DNA of 55,611 bases from a virus (Duplodnaviria > Heunggongvirae > Uroviricota > Caudoviricetes), in IMG/VR virus record IMGVR_UViG_2778261256_000006, positions 1 through 55,611 of that record, one strand, 5' to 3'. Made by a program: the position numbers and the translations under genes. This document shows, piece after piece, positions 7,036-40,999 of the stretch. Each line of letters opens with the position of its first letter. Position 1 is the first letter of the stretch. The notes below the pieces were generated by a model, which saw only the letters and a list, made by a program, of their open reading frames with translations, ran no database searches and had not been told where the DNA came from.

Positions 7036-7042
7036 TAACACT

Positions 7043-7643
7043 ATCCACTGCGGTGAGTAGCCAGTTCACCGCGTGTGAATCCGGCTCATAACCACTGTAG
7101 CGAGTAGAACACCCTTCAGGTATGCCCCCCAACCACTGTAGTGAGCAAACCCTCTGCCACGATATCAACTATCCACTGTAGTGAGTAAATTGGTGATTAT
7201 CGGGGTCGCTATACACTGTAGTGAGTAAACAGGCGTTCACTGACTACAAACAACCACTATAGAGAGTGATGGAATGCCCCCTCCAGCGGATATCCACTAT
7301 GGAGAGTAAATCTTCGCTGTTTTAAACGGATATCCACTCACTACAGTGGATAGAGGTCAAGTCAGCCAATTCTGCTCTTCACAGTGGATAGTCAACAATG
7401 AGGAGAGCGACGATAACCGCTGTAGAGAGTAGACTTAACAGAGATACCCAGTGACCGCTAACCTCTCAGCCCTTGTTTTATCTATGTTTGCAACCACTAA
7501 CATTTACTTCGCGATTTGTGCGCACTGCCTACAGTGGTTATTCTTCGGTTTCTTTTACTCACTACAGTGGATATTGCATTTCCGATAAACAAAAAGGCTC
7601 ACTACAGTGGATAGTGAGCCTTTTTACTCTCTACAGTGGTTGG
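7043..7643. repeat. iteron array downstream of repA (about 14 copies of CCACTGTAGTGAGTA-like repeats, both orientations)
   Basis: Repeated TATCCACTGTAGTGAGTAA-like units at irregular 30-45 bp spacing, some as inverted pairs (e.g. 7330-7352). Confidence 0.85.
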
Positions 7644-7644
7644 G

Positions 7645-8700
7645 CTATTTGCGAGCCTTTGCCTTGCGCAGCTCTTCGAGAATCGCCAGTTCTTCCTTGC
7701 TCAACATGACCATTTCCCCGTCTTTTTCTTCAGGGGCAACATCGATAATGTCCTCCGGATCATCACCTGGCAAGATATCTTCTGGCTCTTCAGGCGTGGC
7801 CATAGATGGCGGCAGTGCCGAACGTAACTTCGGCCGTCTATAGTGGATGACGAAGTAGACCGAGCTGCCGCGTTTCACTTCAGTGTAATCGAGATAGCCG
7901 ATCTCTCGCAGCTGCTCCATCGCCTTCCTGACTGTCGCATTCTGGGTAATGGTGCGGCTGGTTAAGTTAAGTCTGGCGCGTAAGCGAGCCAATGAGATTG
8001 GCGCCGGGTCTGGTGGCAAACTTTCAATGAAGGTGTAGAGCGCCTGCGCGGATTCTTTTCTGGAGAGTTCGTTGATGGCCCGAAGTTGCAAAAGCACCTT
8101 TTTGTCGAACTGGTAAAGTTCGAAAATCTTAGGATCGGCCTTCAGTTCGACCGTGTCATTCTTGGTACTGTACTTTGCCGTCTGCACAAGGTGCGTAACG
8201 TAATACTCTTCAGAGCCTTTGCTGCGGAATGAGATGGTGTTTGTGGCGATACGACTTAGAGAGCTGTCCAGGCGCTTACGTAACTTCGCGGACGATCTGG
8301 CTGTTGGTATGCCACAAAGTCTGACGAACTCGACGAACGGCAACGTGACGGTGTCACCAACAACCTTGTGCTTGGCGAACGCGTGGATGATGCCCACCCA
8401 TGTTTTGAAATCGTTATCCATATCAAGACGAAGACCAGCAATCCTTATATCCTCGTACCCTTCGGCTTTGGCCAGAGACAGCTGTTTGAGTTCAGCGGAG
8501 GCGTCCATAGAGACCATTTGCCCCTTTCTACCCCTGGATGTCGATTTCAGCGTCGGAACGAAGAGACCAAGACGCATCAGAGCAACAGGCTGAACTGTGT
8601 TGTTGGTGTTAGGAACTAACGTAACAACTTCGCCGGTCTTTTTGTCTGTTTCGGAAAATGCTTCGCTTATCGCAATGTTTTTATTGTCGTTTACGCTCAT
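7645..8700 (-). CDS. repA: Replication initiator RepA (RepFIB / P1 RepA family, iteron-binding)
   Basis: 351 aa; motifs I recall from RepFIB RepA ([61 protein letters not shown]); flanked by iterons. Confidence 0.88.
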
Positions 8701-8738
8701 TCCAAATGTCTCTTTTTATTCGACGGCTTGGGTGCCTT

Positions 8739-8844
8739 TACTGATTACAGTGGATAGTAGCACCCATCACAGTGGTTATCCTACCGCCTACAGCGGTTTT
8801 TCTACTCTCTATAGTGGTTGTTCTTCTCACTATAGTGGATATCG
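8739..8844. repeat. iteron block upstream of repA (about 5 copies)
   Basis: ACAGTGGATAG / ACAGTGGTTAT-like repeats in the orientation opposite to the downstream array. Confidence 0.8.
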
Positions 8845-8883
8845 ATAACCTCTAAAGCCATGTGGCACAACGGTTTGCAGGGG

Positions 8884-8965
8884 CCGGGGATCTCTTTGGG
8901 TCTTTGTGGTTCTCTTTGGTTCTAACAGGGATCTGAATTACTGGATCGGGCCTGTGTATAAAAAT
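8884..8965. promoter_or_regulatory. GATC-rich module with DnaA-box-like site (origin element), copy 1
   Basis: Several GATC within about 80 bp, plus TGTGTATAA (reverse complement of TTATACACA, matching the DnaA-box consensus TTATNCACA). Confidence 0.6.
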
Positions 8966-9120
8966 CAGATAATTACAAAATCAGGCATCACTCCCCTTCT
9001 GGGGATAATGTGTGATCGAAATAAACACGCCGCAACGCAAAATTTACAATATTTCCAAGAATATCAGCCATCTGCCGCAGAAAAACAGGCTCGGAGTTAT
9101 CCAGTTAAAACATTGTCTCC

Positions 9121-9230
9121 TACTCACTACAGTGGATACCGACTACTCTCCAGAGAGGTTGTTTTGCTCTTCATAGCGGTTATTATGCTCTCTACAGTGG
9201 TTATTTTGCTCCCTATAGTGGATAGTAACC
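9121..9230. repeat. second iteron block upstream of repA (about 4 copies)
   Basis: CACTACAGTGGATAC, CTACAGTGGTTAT and TATAGTGGATAG repeats. Confidence 0.8.
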
Positions 9231-25023: not shown

Positions 25024-25650
25024 ATGGCGGGAATAATTACCTGGAAAGTTGATATCATATACCCGCTTGTATTTCAAAATGGAATGGATGTAATGGAAAT
25101 CGATACTTTAGAAAAAAAATCAGTTAAAAACCTCTACGCGTGGCTTATAGCAATACTGCCGTTTGTTGTCAGCGTCCCCCCTGCTGAGTACGACAATTAC
25201 GTTATGGTGATTTCGTTCGTCATTGGGCTTGGACTGCTGGTCGCCGATCGCATGAATTTGACTGAGGCAGGCTATGAGCCACCATCATTCTTATGTGGGT
25301 TCTTTATCCCCCCTGTGTATCTCTGGAAACGAGCGACGGTTCTTGGAAGTAACCGACTGCTGTTTATCGTATGGATTGTTGCCTTTGCTGCATCATTTTT
25401 CGTGTATAGCTTCAACGCAGATTCAGCGCTTGAAGAAGCTGCTTGCCCTATAGTTACCACTATTCTGAAAGAAAATAACGGTTCAGAAGCATCTAAATGC
25501 ATGAAGGTAACAATTCAGGACAAAGTGACGGACAAGTTCTACAAAGCCACGGCTACACTGGATAACGGTAATGACATTAACATCACTATCGAAATGATCG
25601 GTGACGAGAATTTCTACGTTCGCGTGCCTAATTACTACCTAAACGACTAA
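25024..25650 (+). CDS. membrane protein (multiple TM segments)
   Basis: Hydrophobic segments (LIAILPFVVSV, MVISFVIGLGLLVA, LLFIVWIVAFAASFFVY). Confidence 0.5.
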   Translation: MAGIITWKVDIIYPLVFQNGMDVMEIDTLEKKSVKNLYAWLIAILPFVVSVPPAEYDNYVMVISFVIGLGLLVADRMNLTEAGYEPPSFLCGFFIPPVYLWKRATVLGSNRLLFIVWIVAFAASFFVYSFNADSALEEAACPIVTTILKENNGSEASKCMKVTIQDKVTDKFYKATATLDNGNDINITIEMIGDENFYVRVPNYYLND

Positions 25651-27150
25651 CGGCTGCAACTCGTTGACATTGGCGGTCACAAATTGAGGATTTCTATAAG
25701 AGTCCGTTGATCGCCACTTCCCCCACCTCTCCAACCTACCCCAGCCCAGGGGTGACAAGGCATTTAAGCCAATTACACCCATAAGAAAACAAATAAATAA
25801 CACGTCAACGAAAAGTCAACGCTTTCCTCTGATTTGGTCTAAAAAGTTGACGTTTTCGCAAGCCATCTCTTATACCCAAAATCCTGCGCACCAGAATCCA
25901 TCTCCCTGCGACCAAAACGTCAAAAACGACTCGTGATATCACTCAAAAACAGAAGCGCTCAGAAGCGCTCCCGTTGCGTTATATTGGGCATCTAAACAAG
26001 TTGTTTTCAGGAATAAGAAAACAAGTTAACAACCCCCACAGGAAACCCAGAGACGCCATTACCCACAATCCCGGAAACACCCACCTCTTCCTGTCAGACT
26101 ACCGAAAAGACCCACCTCATTGCCCCAGGCTACAGACCACCCACCTAATATTCCCAGGCAACCGAGAACGCGGTTCGCACGCGCAAACCCCGATACGTCA
26201 TTACCCAATACACGGAGAAGAACAGCCAGAACGAAACCCCGGACAAACCCAGACAAGAACAGGAGCCGTCACAATCTCGTTTACCCACCATTACCCCGAA
26301 AGAGAGCGCAAATTCCTGAATAGCAGGGAACGCCATTACTTCATATGCGGAGAACAACTAAAGCGCCCTACTGCCATTACCCACACTTTCATCATTTCAC
26401 GTAAACGAAGAGAAAAGTGCACCTGCCATTACTCCATACACGGAGAAGAACACTCACCAAAACGACGAGAACAACCCAGACGAAAACACAGAGAAGAACC
26501 ACCTCAAGAAGAACGAAACCACATATGCCGGTAGAAAGAACAAACCACCCATTTCACCCAAAGGAATACTCGCCGTATAGAGCGTTATCAGAGGGAAGGT
26601 TTGTGCCCACATAAGAGAGAAAATTCGTGGGAGGTATAAGTGGGAAGGGAAGGAGGGGTATCGCTACTTTCTCCGTATAAATTCAAGCCATAGTTTTCGT
26701 CCCCCGTAACGTCCCTTTCCACCCCTTCGGTCAGCCTTCGGGCCATCCAGGGAAAAGGCTGGAGGTTTTCAGGGAAACGGTGGGAATCCCGCTATACGAA
26801 CCGGGAAAAGCTGGCTGCCGGTCGGGAAACGGGTACATCCCGGTACAGAGCGAGGGACGACTGCGGGAGCGGTGCGGGAAATCTTCGGGAGTGCGCCTTG
26901 CTCTTCGCTCGCCTGAAAATCGCGAGGGAGTGTCGTTCCCTCTCGTGCAGCTGCTGAACTCCATTCTGCCAGACCATCCTCGGGTCTCAAGCGATTTCAG
27001 TAGGTTTTCGGGGAGAAGAAAATTCTGCCCACCAGCCCTGCGGCGCGCGTAGAGCAGAATATCGTAAATACTGGTTCCCGTGTCGTTCCCGGATATTCAC
27101 TGCCCAGCCTGGCTTTCACGACATAAAATCCTTTTTCGCCTTTGTCTTAT
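25650..27150. repeat. 1.5-kb non-coding stretch rich in degenerate short direct repeats
   Basis: No convincing ORF (only low-complexity frames); repeated CGTCAACG/CGTTGAC, CCATTAC..ACGGAGAAGAACA (x3), CCACC-rich and GGGAAAHGG units. Confidence 0.55.
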
Positions 27151-27217
27151 TGCGACAATAACACCAACAAGTAAACAACATGTTTAGACGTTATATAAAC
27201 GAAGTGAGGATGAAGGG

Positions 27218-27436
27218 ATGATTAAGATGCCTGTGACGGTTGAGGTGTGGGGCGTGGATTCCCTGGCTGAGTGTCTGGATGCAGTGGGGCCGGAGTTGTA
27301 CCGCAAGTTGTGGTCGTTCGTCCCGGCAGAAGGGGAATCGCCCAAAGGGAAGGATATCTGGCACCTGCTTAGTGAAGATGAAAAGCGGGAGCTGGTGGAC
27401 GCGGTACACAGCGAGTTCCCGGACGACGAAGATTAA
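27218..27436 (+). CDS. small acidic hypothetical protein
   Basis: 72 aa; preceded by GATAAT plus operator-like palindrome. Confidence 0.5.
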   Translation: MIKMPVTVEVWGVDSLAECLDAVGPELYRKLWSFVPAEGESPKGKDIWHLLSEDEKRELVDAVHSEFPDDED

Positions 27437-27575
27437 GAGTGAGACCACCAGCACGGTGGCTTTTGTCGCTATTAACCTCCGGGGCAGCGCAGCACCGTAA
27501 CGATATACTTTGTGGCCGTTTTCTTACTGGTATTGTTTACGCAATTCAGAAAACAACATGTTTAAGGATTGCTTT

Positions 27576-27905
27576 ATGTTTGCAAATATCGACATCAACC
27601 AAATCAAGAAAATGACTCAAAAAGAGTTTGACCAGTTTTATGAGTTAGAAGGTTGGTCTTCCACGCTGATCAATTCGCGCTGGGTGCTTGAGCTGATGAC
27701 TCGTGATGATGCTCCTGCTTTGATTATTTGCGACATGGGTGAAGATGCTGACTTTATGGATATGAGCGAATTTTGTGTGGACACATACAACCGCAGCCAG
27801 AAGTACTACTTCACATGCGATAGCGAGAATGACGTGATTTCTAAGCTCTATCTTCACCTTGTCCAGCATTGGGACGTGCAGGAATTCCTTGAGTTATTCG
27901 CGTAA
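27576..27905 (+). CDS. small acidic hypothetical protein
   Basis: 109 aa; AAGGA RBS directly after the operator-like palindrome. Confidence 0.5.
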   Translation: MFANIDINQIKKMTQKEFDQFYELEGWSSTLINSRWVLELMTRDDAPALIICDMGEDADFMDMSEFCVDTYNRSQKYYFTCDSENDVISKLYLHLVQHWDVQEFLELFA

Positions 27906-28065
27906 GCCCAACCAAAGCCAGCACCGCCTGCTGGCTTAACTTCTCTGTAGCCGCAGGGCTGAACCACCTTTAGATAATTCATGTGCCTGAGCAATATGCT
28001 TTGTAGCCGTTTTTACACTGGTATTATTTACGCCATTGAGAAAACAATTTGTTTACGGAGTGGTG

Positions 28066-28377
28066 ATGAATACTTCATTGGTGCTGGGTCTTGCTGAAGG
28101 CCAGGAGAGAAAAGAAAAACCAACCTTAATGGGGCATCTCACATTGCTGGATATCGTAGCGAATGGGACTTCTATCCGTCTGTTTCGTGAAAAAGCCATT
28201 ACCTTCGACGCGGGCAATTTTACGCGCTATGTGATGGTAGTTCGTCGCCAGCGTGGAAGAGGGTGGATGTCGGTCCAGAAAATGTGGCCAGAGGACCAGC
28301 TTGAACTGGCGCTGATGGAAGCCAACCGTGTCGCCCAACAAGAGATCCAACGAGCGTCTGTTCAGGCGGTAGCTTAA
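28066..28377 (+). CDS. small hypothetical protein
   Basis: 103 aa; operator-like motif then RBS; followed by a terminator. Confidence 0.5.
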   Translation: MNTSLVLGLAEGQERKEKPTLMGHLTLLDIVANGTSIRLFREKAITFDAGNFTRYVMVVRRQRGRGWMSVQKMWPEDQLELALMEANRVAQQEIQRASVQAVA

Positions 28378-28411
28378 ACATGTGCAAGCAGTAGTTAGTC
28401 GACCCTACGAC

Positions 28412-28440
28412 AGCCCCGTCCATCCTTCGGGGCTTTTTTG
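28412..28440 (+). terminator. rho-independent terminator
   Basis: AGCCCCG..CGGGGCT hairpin followed by TTTTTT. Confidence 0.65.
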
Positions 28441-28498
28441 TATTGTAAGTACTTACTTATGATAATAAAATTAAAAATTAAACACTAAGGAGAGTGAA

Positions 28499-28894
28499 AT
28501 GACCGTTAAACGCGAAAATCTGACCCTGGATATGTATTATGCATCAGAGACGGAAAATGGAGACAAAGTTGCAAAAATTACAATTGTGCTACGCGATAAT
28601 GCCTCCGGCGAAGAAGTTCACACCAGTACCTTAACTCGCACCGGCGAGGCGACAAAGGGGAAATATTCGGTGCGTTACCAAAGCATCAGTAATGCTTCTG
28701 ACCCTTTACTGATAAAACTGGAAACTCATTTCCGTGGCGCGGATCAGACGTTGTTTGAAAATTTGATGAAAAAGGTCGATACGGTTTATACATCGAGTTT
28801 AAATACCAATAGTACCTGGATGGGACAACACGGTCTGCGAATAATCTCCGGCGAAAAGATCGACACCATTGTCCCTGAAAGCGTATTCGCTTAA
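28499..28894 (+). CDS. hypothetical protein
   Basis: 131 aa; preceded by the GTAAGTACTTAC palindrome and AAGGAG RBS. Confidence 0.5.
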   Translation: MTVKRENLTLDMYYASETENGDKVAKITIVLRDNASGEEVHTSTLTRTGEATKGKYSVRYQSISNASDPLLIKLETHFRGADQTLFENLMKKVDTVYTSSLNTNSTWMGQHGLRIISGEKIDTIVPESVFA

Positions 28895-28903
28895 TCCTCT
28901 TTG

Positions 28904-28930
28904 AATGGCGCGTATCCCGCGCCATTTTCT
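28904..28930 (+). terminator. rho-independent terminator
   Basis: AATGGCGCG-TATCC-CGCGCCATT followed by TTCTT. Confidence 0.6.
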
Positions 28931-29011
28931 TATCCCCGATAACAAAATGTTTTCTGCCTTATCTGATTTGTGAAAATGATTTCACTGAAGCAACTTAATA
29001 AGGAAACCATC

Positions 29012-29386
29012 ATGGGACTTGATATCTATATCGAGACGCAGCCTAAAAACGATCTGAATAACGAGGCATCCAGAAAGCAGGTTGCTTACTTCCGTAAGTT
29101 CAATGCGCTCGTTGGGTGGATGGAGCGCAACGTAGGTGAAGTCGAAAATTGTGAGCTTTTAGAATTAACGATGAATGACATTTGTTTTCTGAAGGCTCAT
29201 TTGATGCACATAAACGAAAGTAATTGCGAAGAGTACTTGCCTACCCAGGAAGGTTTTTTCTTCGGCAGTCAGGAGTACGATGAAGGTTACTGGCATGATG
29301 TGGGGGAGTTGAAAGAGATTGTGGAAGATCTGATTAAGAACCACGACTTTCACAATAATAGACTGACCTTCTGCGCCTGGTGGTAA
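29012..29386 (+). CDS. hypothetical protein
   Basis: ORF 28970-29386; ATG 29012 (MGLDIYIE) is the more likely start. Confidence 0.45.
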   Translation: MGLDIYIETQPKNDLNNEASRKQVAYFRKFNALVGWMERNVGEVENCELLELTMNDICFLKAHLMHINESNCEEYLPTQEGFFFGSQEYDEGYWHDVGELKEIVEDLIKNHDFHNNRLTFCAWW

Positions 29387-29722
29387 ATATGGGCGATTTC
29401 AAGAAACGCCTGAAGGAGAGAGCCGAGATGGTCAGAAAGCGAAACGCCTCTTCTGTCATAAGATACGCAAGGCAGTTTAGTCGCAACAACAAATCAGTTG
29501 AGGAAAAGATCCTTAGCGTAATCGGGCGATAATTATTAAGGCCACCAGCATTGGTGGTCTTAAATGACTTTTAATAACCGAAGGTTAGTTTAAAACCTGG
29601 CTATCAACTTCCAGAACCTTTCTTGTGTATTCAGCCTGTATTAACTTCTTTTATGCCTTATCTACACTGCGATAATTACACCAACAAGAAAACAATATGT
29701 TTACGCAGTGAGGATATGCTCA

Positions 29723-30003
29723 TGACTGATTTCACCATTACCCCTAAAGCACAAAATGTATTCCTTGAATCATGGCTGGACTTGCCGGAAACAGAACAGC
29801 AAGAAATGGATCATGTGGAATATGACGAGCAGGTAAGCACGCGATTCTTCCACTTTGAGGGCTGCGTTTACGACATTGCCGACTTCATGCGAGATGACCG
29901 CTTCCCTGAATGGCACGCAAGCTATCCACTAAACGCCTTCGCCATGCTGATGATCCGTGTGGATGATTCAGGGGATACCATCGACATCGGTCTGCTCCAC
30001 TAA
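29723..30003 (+). CDS. small acidic hypothetical protein
   Basis: 93 aa; GATAAT plus operator-like palindrome upstream; followed by a hairpin. Confidence 0.5.
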
Positions 30004-30207
30004 AGAGTAAGGCCACCAATGCTGGTGGCCTTAAATGACCATCCTGTTTCCCGCAGGCTAAAAACACCAACCTCTTACCTCTAGGCAACCGACAAACCCA
30101 CCTGTTCCCGTCCGGCTACCGCAACTTTCCACTTTGACGCCTTATTCGTACAACGATAATTAACACCAACAAGAAAACAATTTGTTATTTACGATAAGGA
30201 ATTAATC

Positions 30208-30690
30208 ATGAATTTTATCGCTACTGTAAACGCACCCGCACATGGCAATATCGCTGTAACGTTCTCTGACATTGAAAAACGAGTACTTGGTGCATGGCGC
30301 GACAATGAGACGGTAGAACTGTCAGCACAAGAAAAATGCATTATTGCACGCGACATCATTGGCAATCGTCGTTACTCGCGGGTATTTGAGAAAGCATATG
30401 TGGTAAATTCTGGATTCGGAACGTTCGTCTTTCCGGTGCGCTCCGGGCGATTCTGCCAGTCCAAGCTGATTGAGTTCGCTACGCAGATTTCTGTCTGGAT
30501 TAAAACTCAATCGTCGTTCAAATTTTCCGACGATGAAGCAGTATCGCAGGGGATGCGGATCGCCAACAATGCAATAAAATACAAAAACATTACGTATGCC
30601 GCTGGCGTTGACACATGGAAACTGTTTTGCGCTAACTTTATGCTGAATGTATACGCAAGCAACCGCATCCACATCCTTGATGGCGTGTAA
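30208..30690 (+). CDS. hypothetical protein
   Basis: 160 aa; GATAAT plus operator-like palindrome upstream; followed by a terminator. Confidence 0.5.
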   Translation: MNFIATVNAPAHGNIAVTFSDIEKRVLGAWRDNETVELSAQEKCIIARDIIGNRRYSRVFEKAYVVNSGFGTFVFPVRSGRFCQSKLIEFATQISVWIKTQSSFKFSDDEAVSQGMRIANNAIKYKNITYAAGVDTWKLFCANFMLNVYASNRIHILDGV

Positions 30691-30696
30691 CTGAGA

Positions 30697-30722
30697 AGAG
30701 GGCCAGAAACGGCCCTTTCTCT
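30697..30722 (+). terminator. rho-independent terminator
   Basis: AGAGGGCC-AGAAAC-GGCCCT followed by TTCT. Confidence 0.55.
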
Positions 30723-31313
30723 ATAGCCACCAGCTGCCGCAGGGAAATTTTCAGAAACGGCGAGGAACGCATTCATGAGCCGACGGGAAACGGCCAAGAT
30801 TTTTTCGGGAAACGGCGGGGGTCGCCTTTATGTAGAAAACTGAGCGGGAGAAACCCGGAATCGCGCCAGAAATTGCGTAGCGGCGCTGGGGTAGCGCTGG
30901 TGGGGTTTCAGCCCCTGGGCCATCCAGATAGCTTTCGCTATGTGATTATGTGAATCCGTGGGTAAATCACTGTAAGCGCGTACACGTTGCCCAACGTGGC
31001 GATCATATGCGAGCGGATACAAAACAACACAAAGAGCCGATCCGCGCCGACAAATAAACGCGGATCACATAGCAAGACTAAAAGCCAATGATTAACCATA
31101 CTCTATAGCGCAATATAACGCGTTTTAAGCGCGTTAATGTGTTAAGTAATGGGTATGTACTGACAAGGATATAAAAGCGCGTCTATGGCGTTATTTTGGT
31201 GCTTATTTTTATGTTGTTGGAGTGAGTTAAAGACAATAAAAAACGCGCCAATGATGGCGCGTTATGGTGGGAGTATTGGAAACGAAAAAAGCGCCCATAG
31301 TGGGCGCTCGATT

Positions 31314-31544
31314 TTATTTGTGTAAACTAATTTTGAATCCCATTTCTACAAACGCTTTTAACATTAAAAATATATCAGCGTCGTTCACGTCTGCTTTTTT
31401 TCGCTCCTGGTCGTTCAATAAGTCAATTTTGCGCGTTGTTTCATTTATAAACTCGACTGCGCGCCCAGCGATCCCAGCGATCCCAGCGATGCGATTAACA
31501 TAATATTCATTATGGACGTTAACGCCAGCGATAAGAACAAACAT
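31314..31544 (-). CDS. small hypothetical protein containing a 9-bp triple tandem repeat (IAGIAGIAG)
   Basis: 76-aa ORF in the AT-rich islet, bracketed by two copies of the hairpin GCGCCCATAGTGGGCGC (31288-31315, 31563-31585). Confidence 0.35.
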   Translation of the reverse strand: MFVLIAGVNVHNEYYVNRIAGIAGIAGRAVEFINETTRKIDLLNDQERKKADVNDADIFLMLKAFVEMGFKISLHK

Positions 31545-32566: not shown

Positions 32567-33094
32567 TTAAAACGGTAAAATTCGTTCGACCCAATCGAAC
32601 ATGGCGACTGTCTTCCTACCGTCCCCCATGTTGAGTGTGACCTGACAAGCGTCAACGCCTCTTGACACCCCTTCTATTTCACGACCGTCCGCCATGTAGA
32701 CCCTTATAGACTTCTGCATCTCATGAGCCTGGCGACAAATTTTGAAGAAATCACGGCGAGATGGCCGATTGTCCACATAGTCTGGGTGTACCGTTGTCCG
32801 ACCCGTGAAGTCGTGCGCAATGCCTTCTGTCACACCTGATTCAATCGTGCTGATTCGCTCAAGTGGGAGCCTTATACGATTTTCTTTGTCGAACGGGGCA
32901 GGGCAAAGGTCGACTTTGTTGCGAGACGACATGAGACCCTGAACGTACATGCAGAACACCTGACCATCTTCCATCGTGACCCTTACAGGAATGAGATACT
33001 TACGCCAGAACATCAGCGCCTTCTCCACGTTGGTGTAATCGCGCGGCCAGACTTCTGCAGGAATCCCGTAGGTGATGTCAGTAATATTCGTCAT
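32567..33094 (-). CDS. hypothetical protein with two similar internal segments
   Basis: Last gene of the helicase operon; start may be 33136 or 33094. Confidence 0.45.
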   Translation of the reverse strand: MTNITDITYGIPAEVWPRDYTNVEKALMFWRKYLIPVRVTMEDGQVFCMYVQGLMSSRNKVDLCPAPFDKENRIRLPLERISTIESGVTEGIAHDFTGRTTVHPDYVDNRPSRRDFFKICRQAHEMQKSIRVYMADGREIEGVSRGVDACQVTLNMGDGRKTVAMFDWVERILPF

Positions 33095-33098
33095 ATCG

Positions 33099-33521
33099 TC
33101 ACAGTGTCGTTGGTAAGATATCGATGTCACCAGCATTACTGGTGAACACCCGGAAGACTTTCGTCTCGCCAGCTTTGGTAATCGTCTCGCGTTCCTGACG
33201 AGCAGGATTCAGTGCGCACAGCCCAGCGTCTTCGAGTGAGGCGCCAACAATCCATTCTCCGGCATCCAGATGAAAAGTGACTTTTTCACCTGTTTCCAGT
33301 TTTGCAACGGTTTCGCCATTGATGAAGATCGATGCGTCGCAACCGGCGCCCACCATGCTTTTATCTCTCATAACCACCAGCGTCGATGCCGCCGGAGATT
33401 GGTATTTGAATATTCTGGTCTGCGGTGCTGGCTTTGCCTCAGAGACAGGAATAGGACGAGATTGACATGCAGTGATAAGTAACGCGGAGGCAGCAACCAG
33501 AGGAAGTAATACGTGTTTCAT
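33099..33521 (-). CDS. lipoprotein (signal peptide with lipobox)
   Basis: MKHVLLPLVAASALLITAC: lipobox LITAC. Confidence 0.55.
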   Translation of the reverse strand: MKHVLLPLVAASALLITACQSRPIPVSEAKPAPQTRIFKYQSPAASTLVVMRDKSMVGAGCDASIFINGETVAKLETGEKVTFHLDAGEWIVGASLEDAGLCALNPARQERETITKAGETKVFRVFTSNAGDIDILPTTL

Positions 33522-39745: not shown

Positions 39746-40999
39746 ATGACCATCCCGTCGTCTCTGAGTCTCGTACAGCTGCATTCTGGGCAGATGCAAG
39801 TCTTCCAGTCGCCACATCGTTTCAAAGTGGTGTGTGCGGGTCGACGCTGGGGTAAATCCCGGTTGTCGATCTCCACCATCATCCGCGCGGCAGCCAAAGA
39901 GAAGAAGCAACGTGTCTGGTATGTCGCACCGACTTACCAGATGGCTCGCCAGATCTTGTGGGATGACCTGCAGGAAGTTCTGCCGCGCAAATGGGTTCGT
40001 AAGAAAAACGACACCACGATGACCATCGTGCTGAAGAACGGCTCTGAAATCGCGCTGAAAGGTGCGGATAAGCCCGATACGCTTCGTGGTGTGGCACTGC
40101 ACTTTGTGGTGCTCGATGAATTTCAGGATATGAAGCCTGACACCTGGTACAAGGTACTGCGTCCGACACTGTCCTCCACCCGTGGCGGTGCGCTGATCAT
40201 CGGTACGCCAAAAGGCTTCTCCGAGTTCCACAAGCTGTGGACTATCGGTCAGAACAAAGATTTGCAACGCAAGGGGCAGTGGAAGAGCTGGCAGTTCGTT
40301 ACGGCCGATTCTCCGTTCGTACCGAGCGCGGAAATCGAAGCAGCGAAGAACGATATGGACCCTAAATCGTTCGCACAGGAATACCTGGCCAGCTTCGAAA
40401 ACATGTCCGGACGCGTTTACTACCCGTTCGACCGCAATGTGCATGTGAAGCCACTCCAGTTCAATCCGAAACTGCCGATCTGGGTTGGTCAGGACTTCAA
40501 CATCGACCCTATGTCATCGGTCATCCTGCAACCGCAGCCAAATGGTGAACTGTGGGCTGTGGACGAATTGGTGTTGTTCTCTTCTAACACGGCTGAAGTG
40601 TGTGACGAGCTGGAGCGTCGATACTGGCGCTGGAAATCTCAGGTCACTATCTTTCCTGACCCGGCAGGTGCGTATCGCCAGCACGCACGCGGCGAATCTG
40701 ACGTCGACATCTTCAAAGAGAAAGGTTTCCTTCGAGTCGATTATCCGAAGAAGCACCCGCCGATCGCAGACCGTGTTAACGCAGTGAACCGCATGTTGAT
40801 GAGTGCCTCGGGCGAAACCCGGTTGTACATCGATCCGAAGTGCAAACACCTCATCGACTCGCTGGAGAAGGTGATCTACAAGCCAGGCTCACGCGATATG
40901 GATAAGACTGGCGGCATCGAACACAGTGCGGATGCGTTGGGTTATCCAGCGTGCATCGTCGCTGGGGACTGCGTGGGCGCCTTGGGCATCTGGAAGTAG
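39746..40999 (+). CDS. Terminase large subunit (TerL)
   Basis: Walker A (VCAGRRWGKS), Walker B (HFVVLDEFQD), C-terminal RNaseH-like nuclease region. Confidence 0.85.
   Translation: MTIPSSLSLVQLHSGQMQVFQSPHRFKVVCAGRRWGKSRLSISTIIRAAAKEKKQRVWYVAPTYQMARQILWDDLQEVLPRKWVRKKNDTTMTIVLKNGSEIALKGADKPDTLRGVALHFVVLDEFQDMKPDTWYKVLRPTLSSTRGGALIIGTPKGFSEFHKLWTIGQNKDLQRKGQWKSWQFVTADSPFVPSAEIEAAKNDMDPKSFAQEYLASFENMSGRVYYPFDRNVHVKPLQFNPKLPIWVGQDFNIDPMSSVILQPQPNGELWAVDELVLFSSNTAEVCDELERRYWRWKSQVTIFPDPAGAYRQHARGESDVDIFKEKGFLRVDYPKKHPPIADRVNAVNRMLMSASGETRLYIDPKCKHLIDSLEKVIYKPGSRDMDKTGGIEHSADALGYPACIVAGDCVGALGIWK

What the first reader, a model, noticed from the sequence alone, without database searches (positions are those of the whole stretch)
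25650..27150. 1.5-kb non-coding region packed with degenerate direct repeats
No credible ORF (only low-complexity His/Pro/Arg-rich frames). Repeat families: CGTCAACG/CGTTGAC (25660-25932), a tandem CAGAAGCGCT x2 (about 25950-25970), CCATTAC(C/T)C..ACGGAGAAGAACA x3 (about 26195, 26330, 26425), CCACC-rich units (26060-26160) and GGGAAAHGG units (26748-26887). The region lies between a membrane-protein gene and the small-gene array and ends at an operator-bearing promoter. Candidate roles are a secondary (lytic) replication origin, a protein-binding array (centromere or packaging recognition), or a structured non-coding RNA locus.
Basis: seen in the sequence. Interest (0 to 1): 0.55.

Follow-up and report, generated by a model that had tools for sequence, protein, structure and literature searches.

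The report
Conserved non-coding control region, phage-plasmid
A 1.5-kb stretch with no protein-coding gene, full of real repeats and with a very lopsided strand composition, is conserved in hundreds of SSU5/pHCM2-type phage-plasmids of gut bacteria; it has not been described in the literature I could search, and it most likely works as a repressor-gated transcription barrier or as the phage's lytic replication start site, not as a folded RNA.

Summary
Repeated 8-, 10- and 12-mers number 89, 23 and 9, against about 26, 2 and 0.2 in shuffles. No reading frame is conserved across clades.

The window is an SSU5/pHCM2-type phage-plasmid. The region is present, about 1.5 kb long, in 859 PLSDB plasmids and 211 of 5426 complete E. 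coli genomes, always on plasmids and never annotated as a feature.

It is modular:
- a conserved left block;
- a likely rightward promoter carrying the family's palindromic operator;
- three 31-nt units;
- a 0.55-kb stretch that is 70% A+C on the top strand, the most extreme composition in the window;
- a G-rich block with GGGAAAMGG units phased at 22, 31 or 43 bp;
- a conserved leftward promoter.

Two of the repeat families recur 4 kb downstream.

It is not the RepA origin, and Yersinia pMT1 lacks it, so plasmid maintenance does not need it. No conserved RNA structure, Rfam match, DnaA box or IHF site was found.

Best reading (0.3): a repressor-gated non-coding transcription unit whose unstructured, C-rich, G-poor RNA loads Rho, insulating the early genes from upstream cargo. 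Main rival (0.25): the lytic origin. A 32-aa ORF on the minus strand is inconclusive.

The parts
25655..25716 (.). Left boundary block: TTGACATTGG, then the inverted repeat TGGCGGTCA (25671-25679) / TGATCGCCA (25708-25716) around TTTCTATAAGA. It contains the region's only GATC. Homology among clades starts here, right after whatever cargo gene lies upstream.
   Evidence: Invariant or nearly so in 63 sequences. The 8-bp helix is found by RNAalifold but never varies, so it says nothing for or against RNA structure. Upstream genes differ between lineages. GATC count.
25783..25877 (.). AT-rich conserved block (about 37% G+C) with GTCAACG x2 on one strand (25804-25810, 25815-25821) and GTTGACG on the other (25846-25852). 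It includes a promoter-like TTGACG-N18-TATACC (25847-25876, + strand) whose hexamers are conserved while the spacer varies.
   Evidence: Conservation of 0.85-0.95; alignment; composition; inverted repeats I10/I11. The promoter reading is an inference; the consensus scanner did not call it.
25950..25969 (+). Tandem CAGAAGCGCT x2. Other clades have CAGACACGCTCAGAAKSGCTC at this place.
   Evidence: TRF, 2.1 copies at 100%; specific to the window's clade.
25974..26027 (+). Likely rightward promoter: TTGCGT, then a -10-like TATATT at 25980-25985. The family's palindromic operator AAACAAGTTGTTT follows at 25994-26006, and a half-site GAAAACAAGTT at 26017-26027 completes an 11-bp inverted repeat.
   Evidence: AAACANNNTGTTT occurs 14 times in the window against 0.19 expected. 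In most of the 14 sites it lies 10-65 nt upstream of a likely start codon, and in about half it lies 13-14 nt after an extended -10 element of the TGnGATAAT or TGGTATTRT type. The site is conserved in all clades, with one mismatch in the LF82 clade. Inverted repeat I12.
26078..26168 (+). Three tandem 31/29-nt units, ACCNACCT-N10-12-CAGGCWACCG. Relatives carry 2 or 3 copies, differing by 31-nt indels.
   Evidence: Family D1; 31-nt deletions in L011 and L012. A second array at 30040-30130 matches at E = 6.6e-4 and is present in every clade examined, including pMT1.
26030..26565 (+). Block rich in A and C: top strand A 0.37, C 0.34, G 0.17, T 0.13. As RNA it would be untranslated and unstructured. 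It holds six CATTAC motifs and three CATTAC..ACGGAGAAGAAC units (26199-26224, 26334-26359, 26427-26452). The most conserved core is 26413-26590.
   Evidence: Composition is kept in all clades even where identity falls to 34-56%. The A+C fraction of 0.70 is the extreme of the window; elsewhere it is 0.50 +/- 0.025 with a maximum of 0.58. MFE is only -22 to -24 kcal per 200 nt in two of the windows, with z near 0. The core is the part still found by megablast in distant E. coli lineages.
26454..26552 (-). Candidate 32-codon ORF, MGGLFFLPAYVVSFFLRWFFSVFSSGLFSSFW, on the G+T-rich strand. Status inconclusive.
   Evidence: The frame is kept in most clades, including across an in-frame 12-nt deletion. 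The synonymous fraction is 0.36 against 0.12 and 0.29 in the other frames; variation by codon position is 22/29/39, p = 0.09. Against: ATG is ACG in SSU5, 8 of 63 sequences carry in-frame stops or frameshifts, and there is no Pfam or NCBIfam match.
26633..26710 (+). Conserved G-rich block GTATAAGTGGGAAGGGAAGGAGGGGTATCGCTACTTTCTCCGTAT..ATTCAAG. It includes the only hairpin with some compensatory changes (26652-26674) and an inverted copy of the ACGGAGAA motif (26669-26679).
   Evidence: Conservation of 0.81-0.85. The hairpin has 9 pairs, 4 with changes on both sides, but also several broken pairs. Inverted repeats I13-I15.
26748..26890 (+). Array of GGGAAAMGG units (26750, 26772, 26803, 26824, degenerate from 26853) spaced 21-22, 31 or 43-45 bp. 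That is 2, 3 or 4 helical turns in every clade. The number of units varies.
   Evidence: The window lacks one 44-bp unit that an otherwise identical plasmid carries. GGGA occurs 14 times against 2.8 expected. A second array lies at 30730-30870.
26963..26990 (-). Leftward sigma-70-type promoter, TTGAGA - 16 nt - TGgCAGAAT (extended -10). The start site is expected near 26955.
   Evidence: Called by the scanner. In five clades the hexamers and the TG are kept while the 16-nt spacer differs in sequence but not in length. In the SSU5 and Enterobacter subtypes a minus-strand gene, SSU5_110 (phrog_23830), takes its place.
27029..27036 (-). Chi site (GCTGGTGG on the minus strand).
   Evidence: conserved in most clades.
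27151..27185 (+). Promoter of the first small gene: an extended -10 TGcGACAAT (27151-27159), with the operator AAACAACATGTTT (27173-27185) 13 nt downstream. This marks the right border of the region.

Best explanation
The region is a conserved, modular, non-coding control element of SSU5/pHCM2-type phage-plasmids. It sits between the hot spot for variable cargo genes and the repressor-controlled array of small early genes.

Proposed mechanism:
1. Rightward transcription enters from the cargo genes, none of which has an intrinsic terminator before the element. It also starts at the element's own operator-bearing promoter at 25974-26006.
2. Either way it produces about 0.55-0.9 kb of untranslated, unstructured RNA that is rich in C and poor in G.
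3. By established knowledge of Rho, such RNA is an ideal loading (rut) substrate. These transcripts should therefore be released before or within the G-rich block and should not reach the early genes.
4. In the lysogen, the family's repressor adds a roadblock at the operator. The repressor is probably the FljA-like protein encoded at 32567-33136.
5. A conserved facing promoter (26990-26963) sends non-coding transcription leftward into the same stretch.
6. The phased ACC units and GGGAAAMGG units bind an unidentified protein. They recur at the far end of the early array, so together they mark its two borders.

Shown here: non-coding status, the repeats, conservation, composition, lack of RNA structure, the conservation signature of the promoter and operator, and dispensability for plasmid maintenance.

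Inferred: that the promoters fire, that Rho acts here, that the arrays bind protein, and that insulation is the selected function.
For: - The top-strand composition (A+C 0.70; C/G about 2-2.7) is the extreme of the 55.6-kb window. It is kept in every clade even where the sequence is close to saturation. This is the pattern expected if strand composition rather than exact sequence is under selection.
- A distant Acinetobacter relative (TerL 61% identical) has an unannotated 2.2-kb gap at the syntenic place. It shows the same layout, A+C-rich then G-rich, with no detectable sequence similarity.
- The RNA would be unstructured and untranslated.
- No intrinsic terminator was found on the + strand, either between the upstream stop codon and the element or inside the element.
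- The operator palindrome occurs 14 times against 0.19 expected. In most cases it lies shortly upstream of a likely start codon, and in about half just downstream of an extended -10 element. One copy sits inside the region in a similar arrangement.
- The facing promoter has conserved hexamers and a variable spacer of fixed length in five clades.
- The left edge of homology coincides with the end of whatever cargo gene lies upstream: a membrane protein, IS1, a restriction-modification system, the metG block or others.
- pMT1 lacks the region, so it is not needed for plasmid replication or partition.
Against: - No transcript, Rho or repressor data exist for this element.
- The LF82/Cyrano expression table does not list the two ORFs called inside the region among lysogen-expressed genes.
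- One intrinsic terminator would insulate far more cheaply than 1.5 kb of conserved sequence.
- Insulation does not explain the helical phasing of the arrays, their second copies, the conserved sequence islands (26413-26590, 26633-26710), or why a promoter should fire straight into a terminator.
- The -35 region of the internal promoter is poor and the consensus scan did not call it.
- The leftward transcript is only moderately C-rich (C 0.32, G 0.23) and is G+C-rich enough to fold, so the barrier may work in one direction only.
- The region is equally conserved where the upstream neighbours point away from it (L011, L009).
Confidence: 0.3

Rival explanations
1. The region is the lytic replication origin (oriLyt) of the phage-plasmid. 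A phage-encoded origin-binding protein occupies the phased iteron arrays. Once the repressor is lost, transcription from the two facing promoters activates the region. DNA opens at the AT-rich left block, or at the point near 26565 where strand composition flips, and the phage's own replisome is loaded there (DnaB-like helicase, primase, Pol III alpha). The second array set 4 kb away would be an auxiliary cis site, as crr is to ori in satellite phage P4.
For: - The region is non-coding and its length is conserved in hundreds of elements.
- Two iteron-like families keep a spacing of 2, 3 or 4 helical turns in every clade. Their copy number varies.
- A conserved AT-rich block lies next to them.
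- Repressor-gated promoters fire into the region.
- GC skew flips from negative to positive at about 26565. This is the polarity seen at bidirectional origins.
- The plasmid origin is elsewhere, and the element encodes its own replisome, so a separate lytic origin is expected somewhere.
- pMT1, which I know of no evidence forms phage (my own knowledge, not tested here), has lost the region.
- The arrays occur only at these two loci in a complete relative.
Against: - No initiator or replication gene adjoins it. The helicase and primase genes lie about 25 kb away in the window.
- There are no DnaA or IHF boxes, and GATC is depleted rather than clustered.
- The gene flanked by the second arrays (phrog_1641) has a confident model with no DNA-binding fold and no PDB match.
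- An origin does not need 0.9 kb of extreme strand composition, which is conserved even in Acinetobacter.
- There are no replication data.
Confidence: 0.25
2. The core of the region is a small-protein gene on the minus strand. The conserved leftward promoter would drive a roughly 500-nt mRNA with a long leader and a 32-36-aa hydrophobic peptide (26552-26454). The rightward operator-bearing promoter would supply a long antisense RNA. This layout resembles a type I toxin-antitoxin pair or a small membrane effector.
For: - The ORF frame is kept in most clades, including across an in-frame 12-nt deletion. Start codons are ATG, TTG or an upstream ATG.
- The synonymous fraction is 0.36 against 0.12 and 0.29 in the other frames, and third codon positions vary most (22/29/39).
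- A conserved promoter lies 400 nt upstream.
- A weak terminator-like hairpin lies at the ORF's end, 26469-26453.
- The ORF lies in the most conserved core of the region.
Against: - A G+T-rich strand yields Phe/Ser/Gly/Val/Leu/Trp peptides in any frame.
- The coding signals are weak (p = 0.09), and the pairs counted are not independent.
- ATG is ACG in SSU5. Eight of 63 sequences have in-frame stops or frameshifts, and the stop codon is lost in several others.
- The most conserved motif (GCCATTACTCCATACACGGAGAAGAAC) lies outside the ORF.
- There is no Pfam or NCBIfam match.
- No comparable peptide occurs in the Acinetobacter analogue.
- The ORF accounts for 99 of 1500 nt.
Confidence: 0.12
3. 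The long A+C-rich transcript acts in trans as a decoy that sequesters an RNA-binding protein such as CsrA, Hfq, Rho or the FljA-like repressor.
For: - The RNA would be long, unstructured and untranslated, and would come from a regulated promoter.
- GGA occurs 26 times against 15.8 expected over 25990-26960 (z = 3.1), and 10 of the 15 GG dinucleotides in the A+C block are followed by A.
- The Acinetobacter relative encodes an Hfq homologue.
Against: - By my own recollection, not checked here, the GGA density of about 1 per 37 nt is roughly half that of the CsrB-type RNAs.
- The enrichment lies mostly in GGGA in the G-rich block, where the units keep DNA helical phase.
- (ARN)n tracts and AANAANAA motifs are no more frequent than composition predicts, and they are missing in the LF82 clade.
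- There is no expression evidence.
Confidence: 0.08
4. The region is a structured non-coding RNA, or a plasmid-maintenance site (RepA origin, incompatibility array, centromere) or a packaging site.
For: Repeats, non-coding status and conservation.
Against: - Rfam gives nothing.
- Folding z-scores are near 0.
- There is no covariation-supported consensus structure on either strand.
- The RepA iterons (ACTCACTACAGTGGATA) are unrelated and 17 kb away.
- The terminase genes are 12 kb away.
- pMT1 is maintained as a plasmid without the region.
Confidence: 0.05
5. The region is functionless remains of duplicated gene cassettes that drift and recombine.
For: - Two of the repeat families flank a real gene 4 kb downstream, which suggests an old cassette duplication.
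- Parts of the region are close to saturation between clades.
- The neighbourhood is mosaic.
Against: - Length is held at about 1500-1570 bp across clades.
- Islands of 72-98% identity persist against a saturated background.
- Composition is maintained.
- Promoter hexamers are conserved while the spacers vary.
- No residual similarity to the flanked gene is detectable.
Confidence: 0.08

Closest known systems
Rho-dependent terminators and rut sites (for example lambda tR1), and Rho-mediated polarity in untranslated RNA
   Same: Long, untranslated, unstructured RNA that is C-rich and G-poor, lying downstream of genes or promoters and followed by a G+C-richer zone.
   Different: It is about ten times longer than characterised rut regions. 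It contains conserved sequence islands and arrays in helical phase. Rho dependence has not been tested.
Transcription-activated phage origins: P1 oriL under the C1-controlled promoter P53, lambda ori activated by pR, and the T4 and T7 promoter-plus-unwinding-element origins
   Same: A repressor-gated promoter fires into a cis-acting region that carries repeats and an AT-rich segment. It belongs to a phage-plasmid whose plasmid origin is separate.
   Different: Those origins lie inside or beside the initiator gene and are a few hundred bp long. Here no initiator gene adjoins the region, and it is 1.5 kb long with extreme strand composition.
Satellite phage P4 ori1 plus crr (a two-part cis replication region)
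   Same: The same short repeat families appear at two non-coding loci about 4 kb apart.
   Different: In P4 both sites carry one octamer that is bound by the alpha primase-helicase. Here there are two different repeat families, no known binding protein, and no sequence similarity to P4.
Dispersed C1 operators of phage-plasmid P1
   Same: One short operator motif is scattered in front of many operons, including non-coding or replication-related units.
   Different: The motif here is a 13-bp palindrome, AAACAA-N-TTGTTT, whereas the P1 operator is asymmetric. The candidate repressor belongs to the FljA family (PF03614) rather than being C1-like. Binding has not been tested.
The non-coding, repeat-rich 'injection stop' region of phage T5, next to its pre-early genes
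   Same: A kilobase-scale non-coding region full of repeats lies next to an array of small early genes, each with its own promoter.
   Different: This comparison rests on my recollection of T5 biology. No sequence similarity was tested, and no fixed genome ends are known for SSU5-type phages.

Membership tests
Iteron-type plasmid origin or incompatibility array of the resident Rep3-family RepA | Carries the same iterons as those flanking repA | tested here: not met
   About 25 RepA iterons (ACTCACTACAGTGGATA) lie at 7041-7650 and 8730-9230. None of the region's motifs resembles them.
Iteron-type plasmid origin or incompatibility array of the resident Rep3-family RepA | Required for, or always accompanying, plasmid maintenance | tested here: not met
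   Yersinia pMT1 has the family backbone (TerL 99% identical) and gene 1641 but lacks 25650-29650.
Enterobacterial theta origin | DnaA boxes, IHF site and GATC cluster beside an AT-rich unwinding element | tested here: not met
   There is no TTWTNCACA and no WATCAANNNNTTR. One GATC occurs in 1.5 kb, against 4.1 per kb in the window. Only an AT-rich block (37% G+C) is present.
Phage lytic origin | Arrays of repeated binding sites in helical phase | tested here: met
   GGGAAAMGG units are spaced 21-22, 31 or 43-45 bp, and the ACC units 29-31 bp, in all clades.
Phage lytic origin | Lies within or next to the initiator or replication genes | tested here: not met
   All neighbours are small genes of unknown function. 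The DnaB-like helicase and primase genes lie at 52-54.6 kb.
Phage lytic origin | Replication starts here after induction | not testable with these tools
   This needs marker-frequency sequencing or 2D gels.
Structured non-coding RNA (Rfam families, large ornate RNAs) | Match to a curated covariance model | tested here: not met
   No hits at gathering threshold over the whole window. The only hit up to E = 5 is a chance eukaryotic lncRNA match at E = 2.5.
Structured non-coding RNA (Rfam families, large ornate RNAs) | Conserved secondary structure supported by covariation and by stability beyond shuffles | tested here: not met
   RNAalifold consensus energies range from 0 to -10 kcal, with compensatory pairs only in one 9-bp hairpin and a few scattered pairs. 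MFE z-scores run from -2.6 to +2.1 and are mostly near 0.
Rho-dependent terminator (rut region) | At least 80 nt of untranslated, unstructured RNA with C well above G | tested here: met
   C is 0.32-0.35 and G 0.12-0.19 over about 535 nt in all clades. No frame is conserved. MFE is about -22 kcal per 200 nt.
Rho-dependent terminator (rut region) | Transcript 3' ends that depend on Rho | not testable with these tools
   This needs 3'-end mapping with and without bicyclomycin.
Partition centromere | Repeats adjoining a par operon and needed for stability | tested here: not met
   No par genes adjoin the region, and pMT1 lacks it.
Packaging site (pac or cos) | Lies in or next to the small terminase gene | tested here: not met
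   TerL is at 39746-40999, 12 kb away.
CsrB- or CrcZ-type protein-sponge RNA | High density of GGA motifs (CsrA) or A-R-N / AANAANAA motifs (Hfq) beyond what composition predicts | tested here: not met
   GGA occurs 26 times against 15.8 expected, about 1 per 37 nt. ARN3-5 and AANAANAA are at or near expectation and are absent in the LF82 clade.
Type I toxin-antitoxin locus | Small hydrophobic ORF under purifying selection and intact across members | tested here: inconclusive
   The frame is kept in about 52 of 63 sequences. The synonymous fraction is 0.36 against 0.12 and 0.29; codon-position variation gives p = 0.09. The ATG is lost in SSU5, and 8 sequences carry stops or frameshifts.
Type I toxin-antitoxin locus | Similarity to a known toxin family | tested here: not met
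   No Pfam or NCBIfam family matches at E up to 10, apart from one chance hit.

The most novel reading that the evidence does not exclude
The region is a bidirectional lytic origin primed by R-loops. When the repressor is lost, the two facing promoters (near 25980 and 26965) each make a transcript that is C-rich until it crosses the centre near 26565 and G-rich beyond it. Each RNA therefore forms a stable hybrid with its C-rich template only on the far side of the centre. That would give two outward-pointing primers for the phage's own Pol III-type replisome. The phased arrays would hold an origin-organising protein. The mirror-image strand composition, kept even in Acinetobacter relatives, would be the signature of this mechanism.
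Probability: 0.1. Interest if true: 0.8.

Novelty: new variant of a known kind. Interest (0 to 1): 0.5.

Why it matters
SSU5/pHCM2-type phage-plasmids are common in clinical Enterobacteriaceae. Here they account for 859 PLSDB plasmids and about 4% of complete E. coli genomes, and they carry resistance and toxin cargo.

How they switch from plasmid to phage, and where lytic replication starts, is not described in the literature I could search. This element is one of their best-conserved non-coding parts, and it lies exactly at the border between swappable cargo and the early lytic genes.

- If it is an insulator, it explains how very different cargo can be inserted upstream without triggering the phage.
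- If it is the lytic origin, it is the missing cis element for copy-number bursts and for engineering these elements.

Either way, the 13-bp operator map and the two promoters give concrete handles for experiments.

Tried and rejected
1. RepA origin or incompatibility array. The RepA iterons are different and 17 kb away.
2. Known RNA families. Rfam gave nothing at either threshold.
3. Large structured RNA. RNAalifold on 42-43 representatives, in blocks and on both strands, and MFE z-scores showed no signal apart from one small hairpin. The long-range pairing of TACACGGAGAA with TTCTCCGTATA is not kept by compensating changes in Klebsiella.
4. Protein coding. Substitutions show no 3-base periodicity, no frame is conserved, and indel lengths are not multiples of three. 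The His/Pro/Arg-rich 186-aa frame is a by-product of composition.
5. Hfq sponge. ARN and AANAANAA motifs are not enriched.
6. CsrA sponge. GGA is only weakly enriched.
7. Decayed copy of the phrog_1641 gene cassette. No residual similarity was found at protein or DNA level.
8. phrog_1641 as the protein that binds the arrays. The model is confident (pLDDT 90), but no PDB fold match or DNA-binding fold was seen.
9. Sequence homology to the syntenic Acinetobacter gap. nhmmer with a profile and Smith-Waterman alignment against shuffles were both non-significant, so only layout and composition are shared.
10. Host-factor sites (DnaA, IHF, CRP). None was found.
11. Literature. Four full-text searches and two papers read (LF82/Cyrano; Klebsiella p2) yielded no description of this region. 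One relevant 2026 preprint could not be opened.


Full report
**What the window is**

The query region matches Salmonella phage SSU5 at 94% identity and 412 PLSDB plasmids by megablast. With blastn it matches 859 plasmids down to about 68% identity. These come from Klebsiella, Escherichia, Enterobacter, Salmonella, Citrobacter, Cronobacter and others, and nearly all are non-mobilizable IncFIB plasmids of about 110 kb.

The window therefore comes from an SSU5/pHCM2-type phage-plasmid. It encodes the following:
- a Rep3-family RepA (7645-8700, minus strand) flanked by about 25 iterons of its own;
- a terminase, a tape-measure protein, a DnaB-like helicase and a primase;
- an FljA-family repressor-like protein (32567-33136, minus strand).

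In RefSeq, 211 of 5426 complete E. coli genomes carry the region. It is always on a plasmid. Nothing is annotated under it except occasional short 'hypothetical protein' calls that differ from record to record.

**Checking the observation**

Taken together they are far beyond chance. Repeated 8/10/12-mers number 89/23/9. Five hundred dinucleotide-preserving shuffles, made within 100-, 300- or 1501-nt blocks, give about 26/2/0.2, and none reaches the observed values.

The region is non-coding in the ordinary sense:
- substitutions across 63 aligned homologues show no 3-base periodicity in any sub-block;
- no frame stays open across clades;
- clades differ by indels of 10, 16, 31 and 44 nt.

The window itself lacks one 44-bp GGGAAA unit that an otherwise identical plasmid carries. 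So the number of repeat units is polymorphic.

**Anatomy**

Sixty-six further loci came from IMG/VR. The 63 full-length copies form 9-12 clades. The distance from the left motif to the right promoter is held at about 1500-1570 bp, except in the SSU5 and Enterobacter subtypes, where the right 280 bp is replaced by a small minus-strand gene.

Conservation comes in islands. The parts, from left to right:

1. *25655-25716.* An invariant inverted repeat, TGGCGGTCA/TGATCGCCA. Homology between clades begins here, immediately after whatever cargo gene lies upstream: a membrane protein, IS1, restriction-modification genes, the metG block or others.
2. *25783-25877.* An AT-rich block with GTCAACG/GTTGACG sites in both orientations, and a promoter-like TTGACG-N18-TATACC.
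3. *25974-26027.* A -10-like TATATT followed by the palindrome AAACAAGTTGTTT.
   - The 13-bp motif AAACANNNTGTTT occurs 14 times in the window against 0.19 expected.
   - In most of the 14 sites it lies 10-65 nt upstream of a likely start codon. In about half it lies 13-14 nt downstream of an extended -10 element of the TGnGATAAT or TGGTATTRT type.
   - I read it as the operator of the family's repressor. That is an inference.
4. *26078-26168.* Three 31/29-nt units. Relatives have two or three.
5. *26030-26565.* A stretch whose top strand is 37% A, 34% C, 17% G and 13% T.
6. *26633-26710.* A conserved G-rich block.
7. *26748-26890.* GGGAAAMGG units spaced 21-22, 31 or 43-45 bp in every clade, which is whole numbers of helical turns.
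8. *26990-26963, minus strand.* TTGAGA-16-TGgCAGAAT. Its hexamers and the TG are kept in five clades, while the spacer differs in sequence but not in length. That is the classical signature of a real promoter.
9. *27029-27036.* A Chi site.
10. *27151-27185.* The promoter and operator of the first small gene.

**Strand composition**

In 500-nt windows the A+C fraction reaches 0.70. The rest of the window averages 0.50 with a standard deviation of 0.025 and a maximum of 0.58. The most negative GC skew of the window also lies here.

The composition is the same in all clades, even in blocks where identity is only 34-56%.

A distant relative from Acinetobacter (TerL 61% identical) has an unannotated 2.2-kb gap at the syntenic place, between an ardA-containing cargo block and the small-gene array. 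On the equivalent strand it shows the same order: about 1 kb rich in A and C, then a G-rich part. A profile search and a local alignment with a shuffle control found no significant sequence similarity. What is shared is therefore layout and composition, which points to a strand-specific role.

**Second copies of two repeat families**

The 31-nt units recur at 30040-30130, and the GGGAAAMGG units, again 22 and 43 bp apart, recur at 30730-30870. They lie on either side of gene 30208-30690 (phrog_1641) at the far end of the small-gene array.

Both second arrays are present in every clade examined and in pMT1. They are absent from the other half of a complete relative.

The second GGGAAA array sits between convergent terminators, where little transcription is expected. 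Together with the helical phasing, this argues that these arrays act as double-stranded DNA sites for a protein.

The flanked gene gives a confident model (pLDDT 90) with no similar solved structure and no obvious DNA-binding fold. It cannot be named as that protein.

**What the region is not**

- It is not the plasmid origin, an incompatibility array or a centromere. The RepA iterons are unrelated and 17 kb away. Yersinia pestis pMT1 shares the backbone (TerL 99% identical) and keeps window positions 29649-31369. It lacks 25650-29650 and is still a stable plasmid.
- It is not a typical enterobacterial origin. There are no DnaA or IHF boxes and only one GATC.
- It is not a packaging site by position.
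- It is not a known or evidently structured RNA. Rfam finds nothing. Folding energies match shuffles on both strands. RNAalifold on 42-43 representatives finds almost no consensus pairs. The exceptions are helices that never vary and one 9-bp hairpin at 26652-26674, which has some compensatory changes and some broken pairs.
- The tests for Hfq-type and CsrA-type sponge motifs were negative or weak.

**A possible small gene**

The most conserved core (26413-26590) contains a 32-codon ORF on the G+T-rich minus strand (26552-26454, MGGLFFLPAYVVSFFLRWFFSVFSSGLFSSFW). It lies 400 nt downstream of the conserved leftward promoter.

For a real gene:
- the frame survives in most clades, including across an in-frame 12-nt deletion;
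- the synonymous fraction among single-difference codons is 0.36, against 0.12 and 0.29 in the other frames;
- third positions vary most (22/29/39, p = 0.09).

Against a real gene:
- any frame of a G+T-rich strand is hydrophobic;
- SSU5 has ACG for ATG;
- 8 of 63 copies carry in-frame stops or frameshifts;
- the best-conserved motif lies outside the ORF;
- no family matches;
- the Acinetobacter analogue has nothing similar.

I leave this as inconclusive.

**Mechanism**

Two readings fit most of the evidence.

*Preferred reading (0.3).* The element is a repressor-gated, non-coding transcription unit that acts as a transcription barrier. No + strand intrinsic terminator lies between the cargo gene and the element. 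Rightward transcripts, whether from the cargo or from the internal promoter, become 0.5-0.9 kb of untranslated, unstructured RNA rich in C and poor in G. From established knowledge of Rho, such RNA is an ideal loading substrate, so the transcripts should end before the early genes. Repressor bound at 25994-26006 would add a roadblock in the lysogen. This accounts for the conserved composition without conserved sequence, for the position at the cargo/early-gene border, and for the Acinetobacter analogue. It does not account for the phased arrays, the conserved islands or the facing promoter.

*Main rival (0.25).* The element is the lytic origin. This accounts for the phased arrays, the AT-rich block, the gated promoters, the loss in pMT1 and the need for an origin for the phage's own replisome. 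It does not account for the composition, and no initiator gene lies nearby.

The two readings are not exclusive.

No expression or replication data for this element were found in the held literature. The one relevant expression table, for LF82/Cyrano, does not list the ORFs called inside the region among lysogen-expressed genes.

**Novelty and score**

I found no description of this element in four full-text searches. It belongs to known kinds, either a cis-regulatory or terminator region or a phage origin. Its form is undescribed: kilobase scale, mirror-image strand composition, convergent promoters and two families of phased repeats duplicated 4 kb apart.

It is widespread in clinically relevant elements, and clear experiments are available. 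The function is unresolved, so I score interest at 0.5.

Noticed in passing
window, whole; for example 27445-27452, 29542-29549, 30021-30028, 30896-30903: Chi (GCTGGTGG) occurs 16 times on both strands against 1.29 expected, and none of 100 shuffles reaches 16. Several copies lie in the stems of the intrinsic terminators of the small-gene array. This suggests selection for protection from RecBCD or for recombination.
   Followed up: partly
window 16742, 17713, 18912, 23685, 24001, 24430, 25994, 27173, 27551, 28042, 29690, 39049, 49043, 51972: The 13-bp palindrome AAACAA-N-TTGTTT occurs 14 times against 0.19 expected. In most cases it lies 10-65 nt upstream of a likely start codon, including the terminase and helicase operons, and in about half it lies about 13 nt downstream of an extended -10 element. 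It is a likely dispersed operator, as in P1. The candidate repressor is the FljA-family protein encoded at 32567-33136 (minus strand).
   Followed up: partly
window 30040-30130 and 30730-30870: Second copies of the 31-nt ACCNACCT..GGCWACCG units and of the 22/43-bp-phased GGGAAAMGG units flank gene 30208-30690 (phrog_1641). They are conserved in all clades and in pMT1, and are absent from the rest of a complete relative.
   Followed up: yes
window 30208-30690: The phrog_1641 protein (160 aa) is restricted to this phage-plasmid family. Its AlphaFold model is confident (pLDDT 90, pTM 0.79) but has no Foldseek match in the PDB (best E = 0.22). It may be a new fold.
   Followed up: partly
window 26748 (junction): The window lacks one 44-bp repeat unit (CAGGGAAAAGGCCATGTCCCTTTTCAGAAACGGGAGCGTCGCCG) that is present in the otherwise identical plasmid CP057716.1 and in most relatives. 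This looks like a repeat-mediated deletion.
   Followed up: yes
window 7041-7650 and 8730-9230: About 25 iterons of 21-22 bp (ACTCACTACAGTGGATA), in opposite orientations on the two sides of repA (7645-8700, minus strand). This is the plasmid origin and copy-control region.
   Followed up: partly
L082 (Y. pestis pMT1, CP019709.1): pMT1 keeps TerL (99% identical) and window positions 29649-31369, but lacks the finding's region and the small genes at 27.2-29.6 kb.
   Followed up: yes
L084 11317-13549 and L083 35895-36434 (A. baumannii NZ_CP155477.1): A distant SSU5-type phage-plasmid has a 2.2-kb unannotated gap at the syntenic site with the same strand-composition layout. It also encodes an Hfq homologue next to its DnaB-like helicase gene.
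   Followed up: partly
window 27200-30700 compared with L001, L014, L015, L043: The histories are mosaic. The region is 94% identical to SSU5 over the 25650-26870 part that aligns, while the neighbouring genes are saturated at 4-fold sites (0.32-0.56 identity). The reverse holds against Cyrano: genes 99% identical, region 67%. The region is exchanged as its own recombination module.
   Followed up: partly
L029 (IMG/VR contig), breakpoint at window 26372: One relative is identical up to 26372 and then continues with unrelated sequence. This is an insertion or rearrangement inside the A+C-rich block. The rest of the contig was not available.
   Followed up: no
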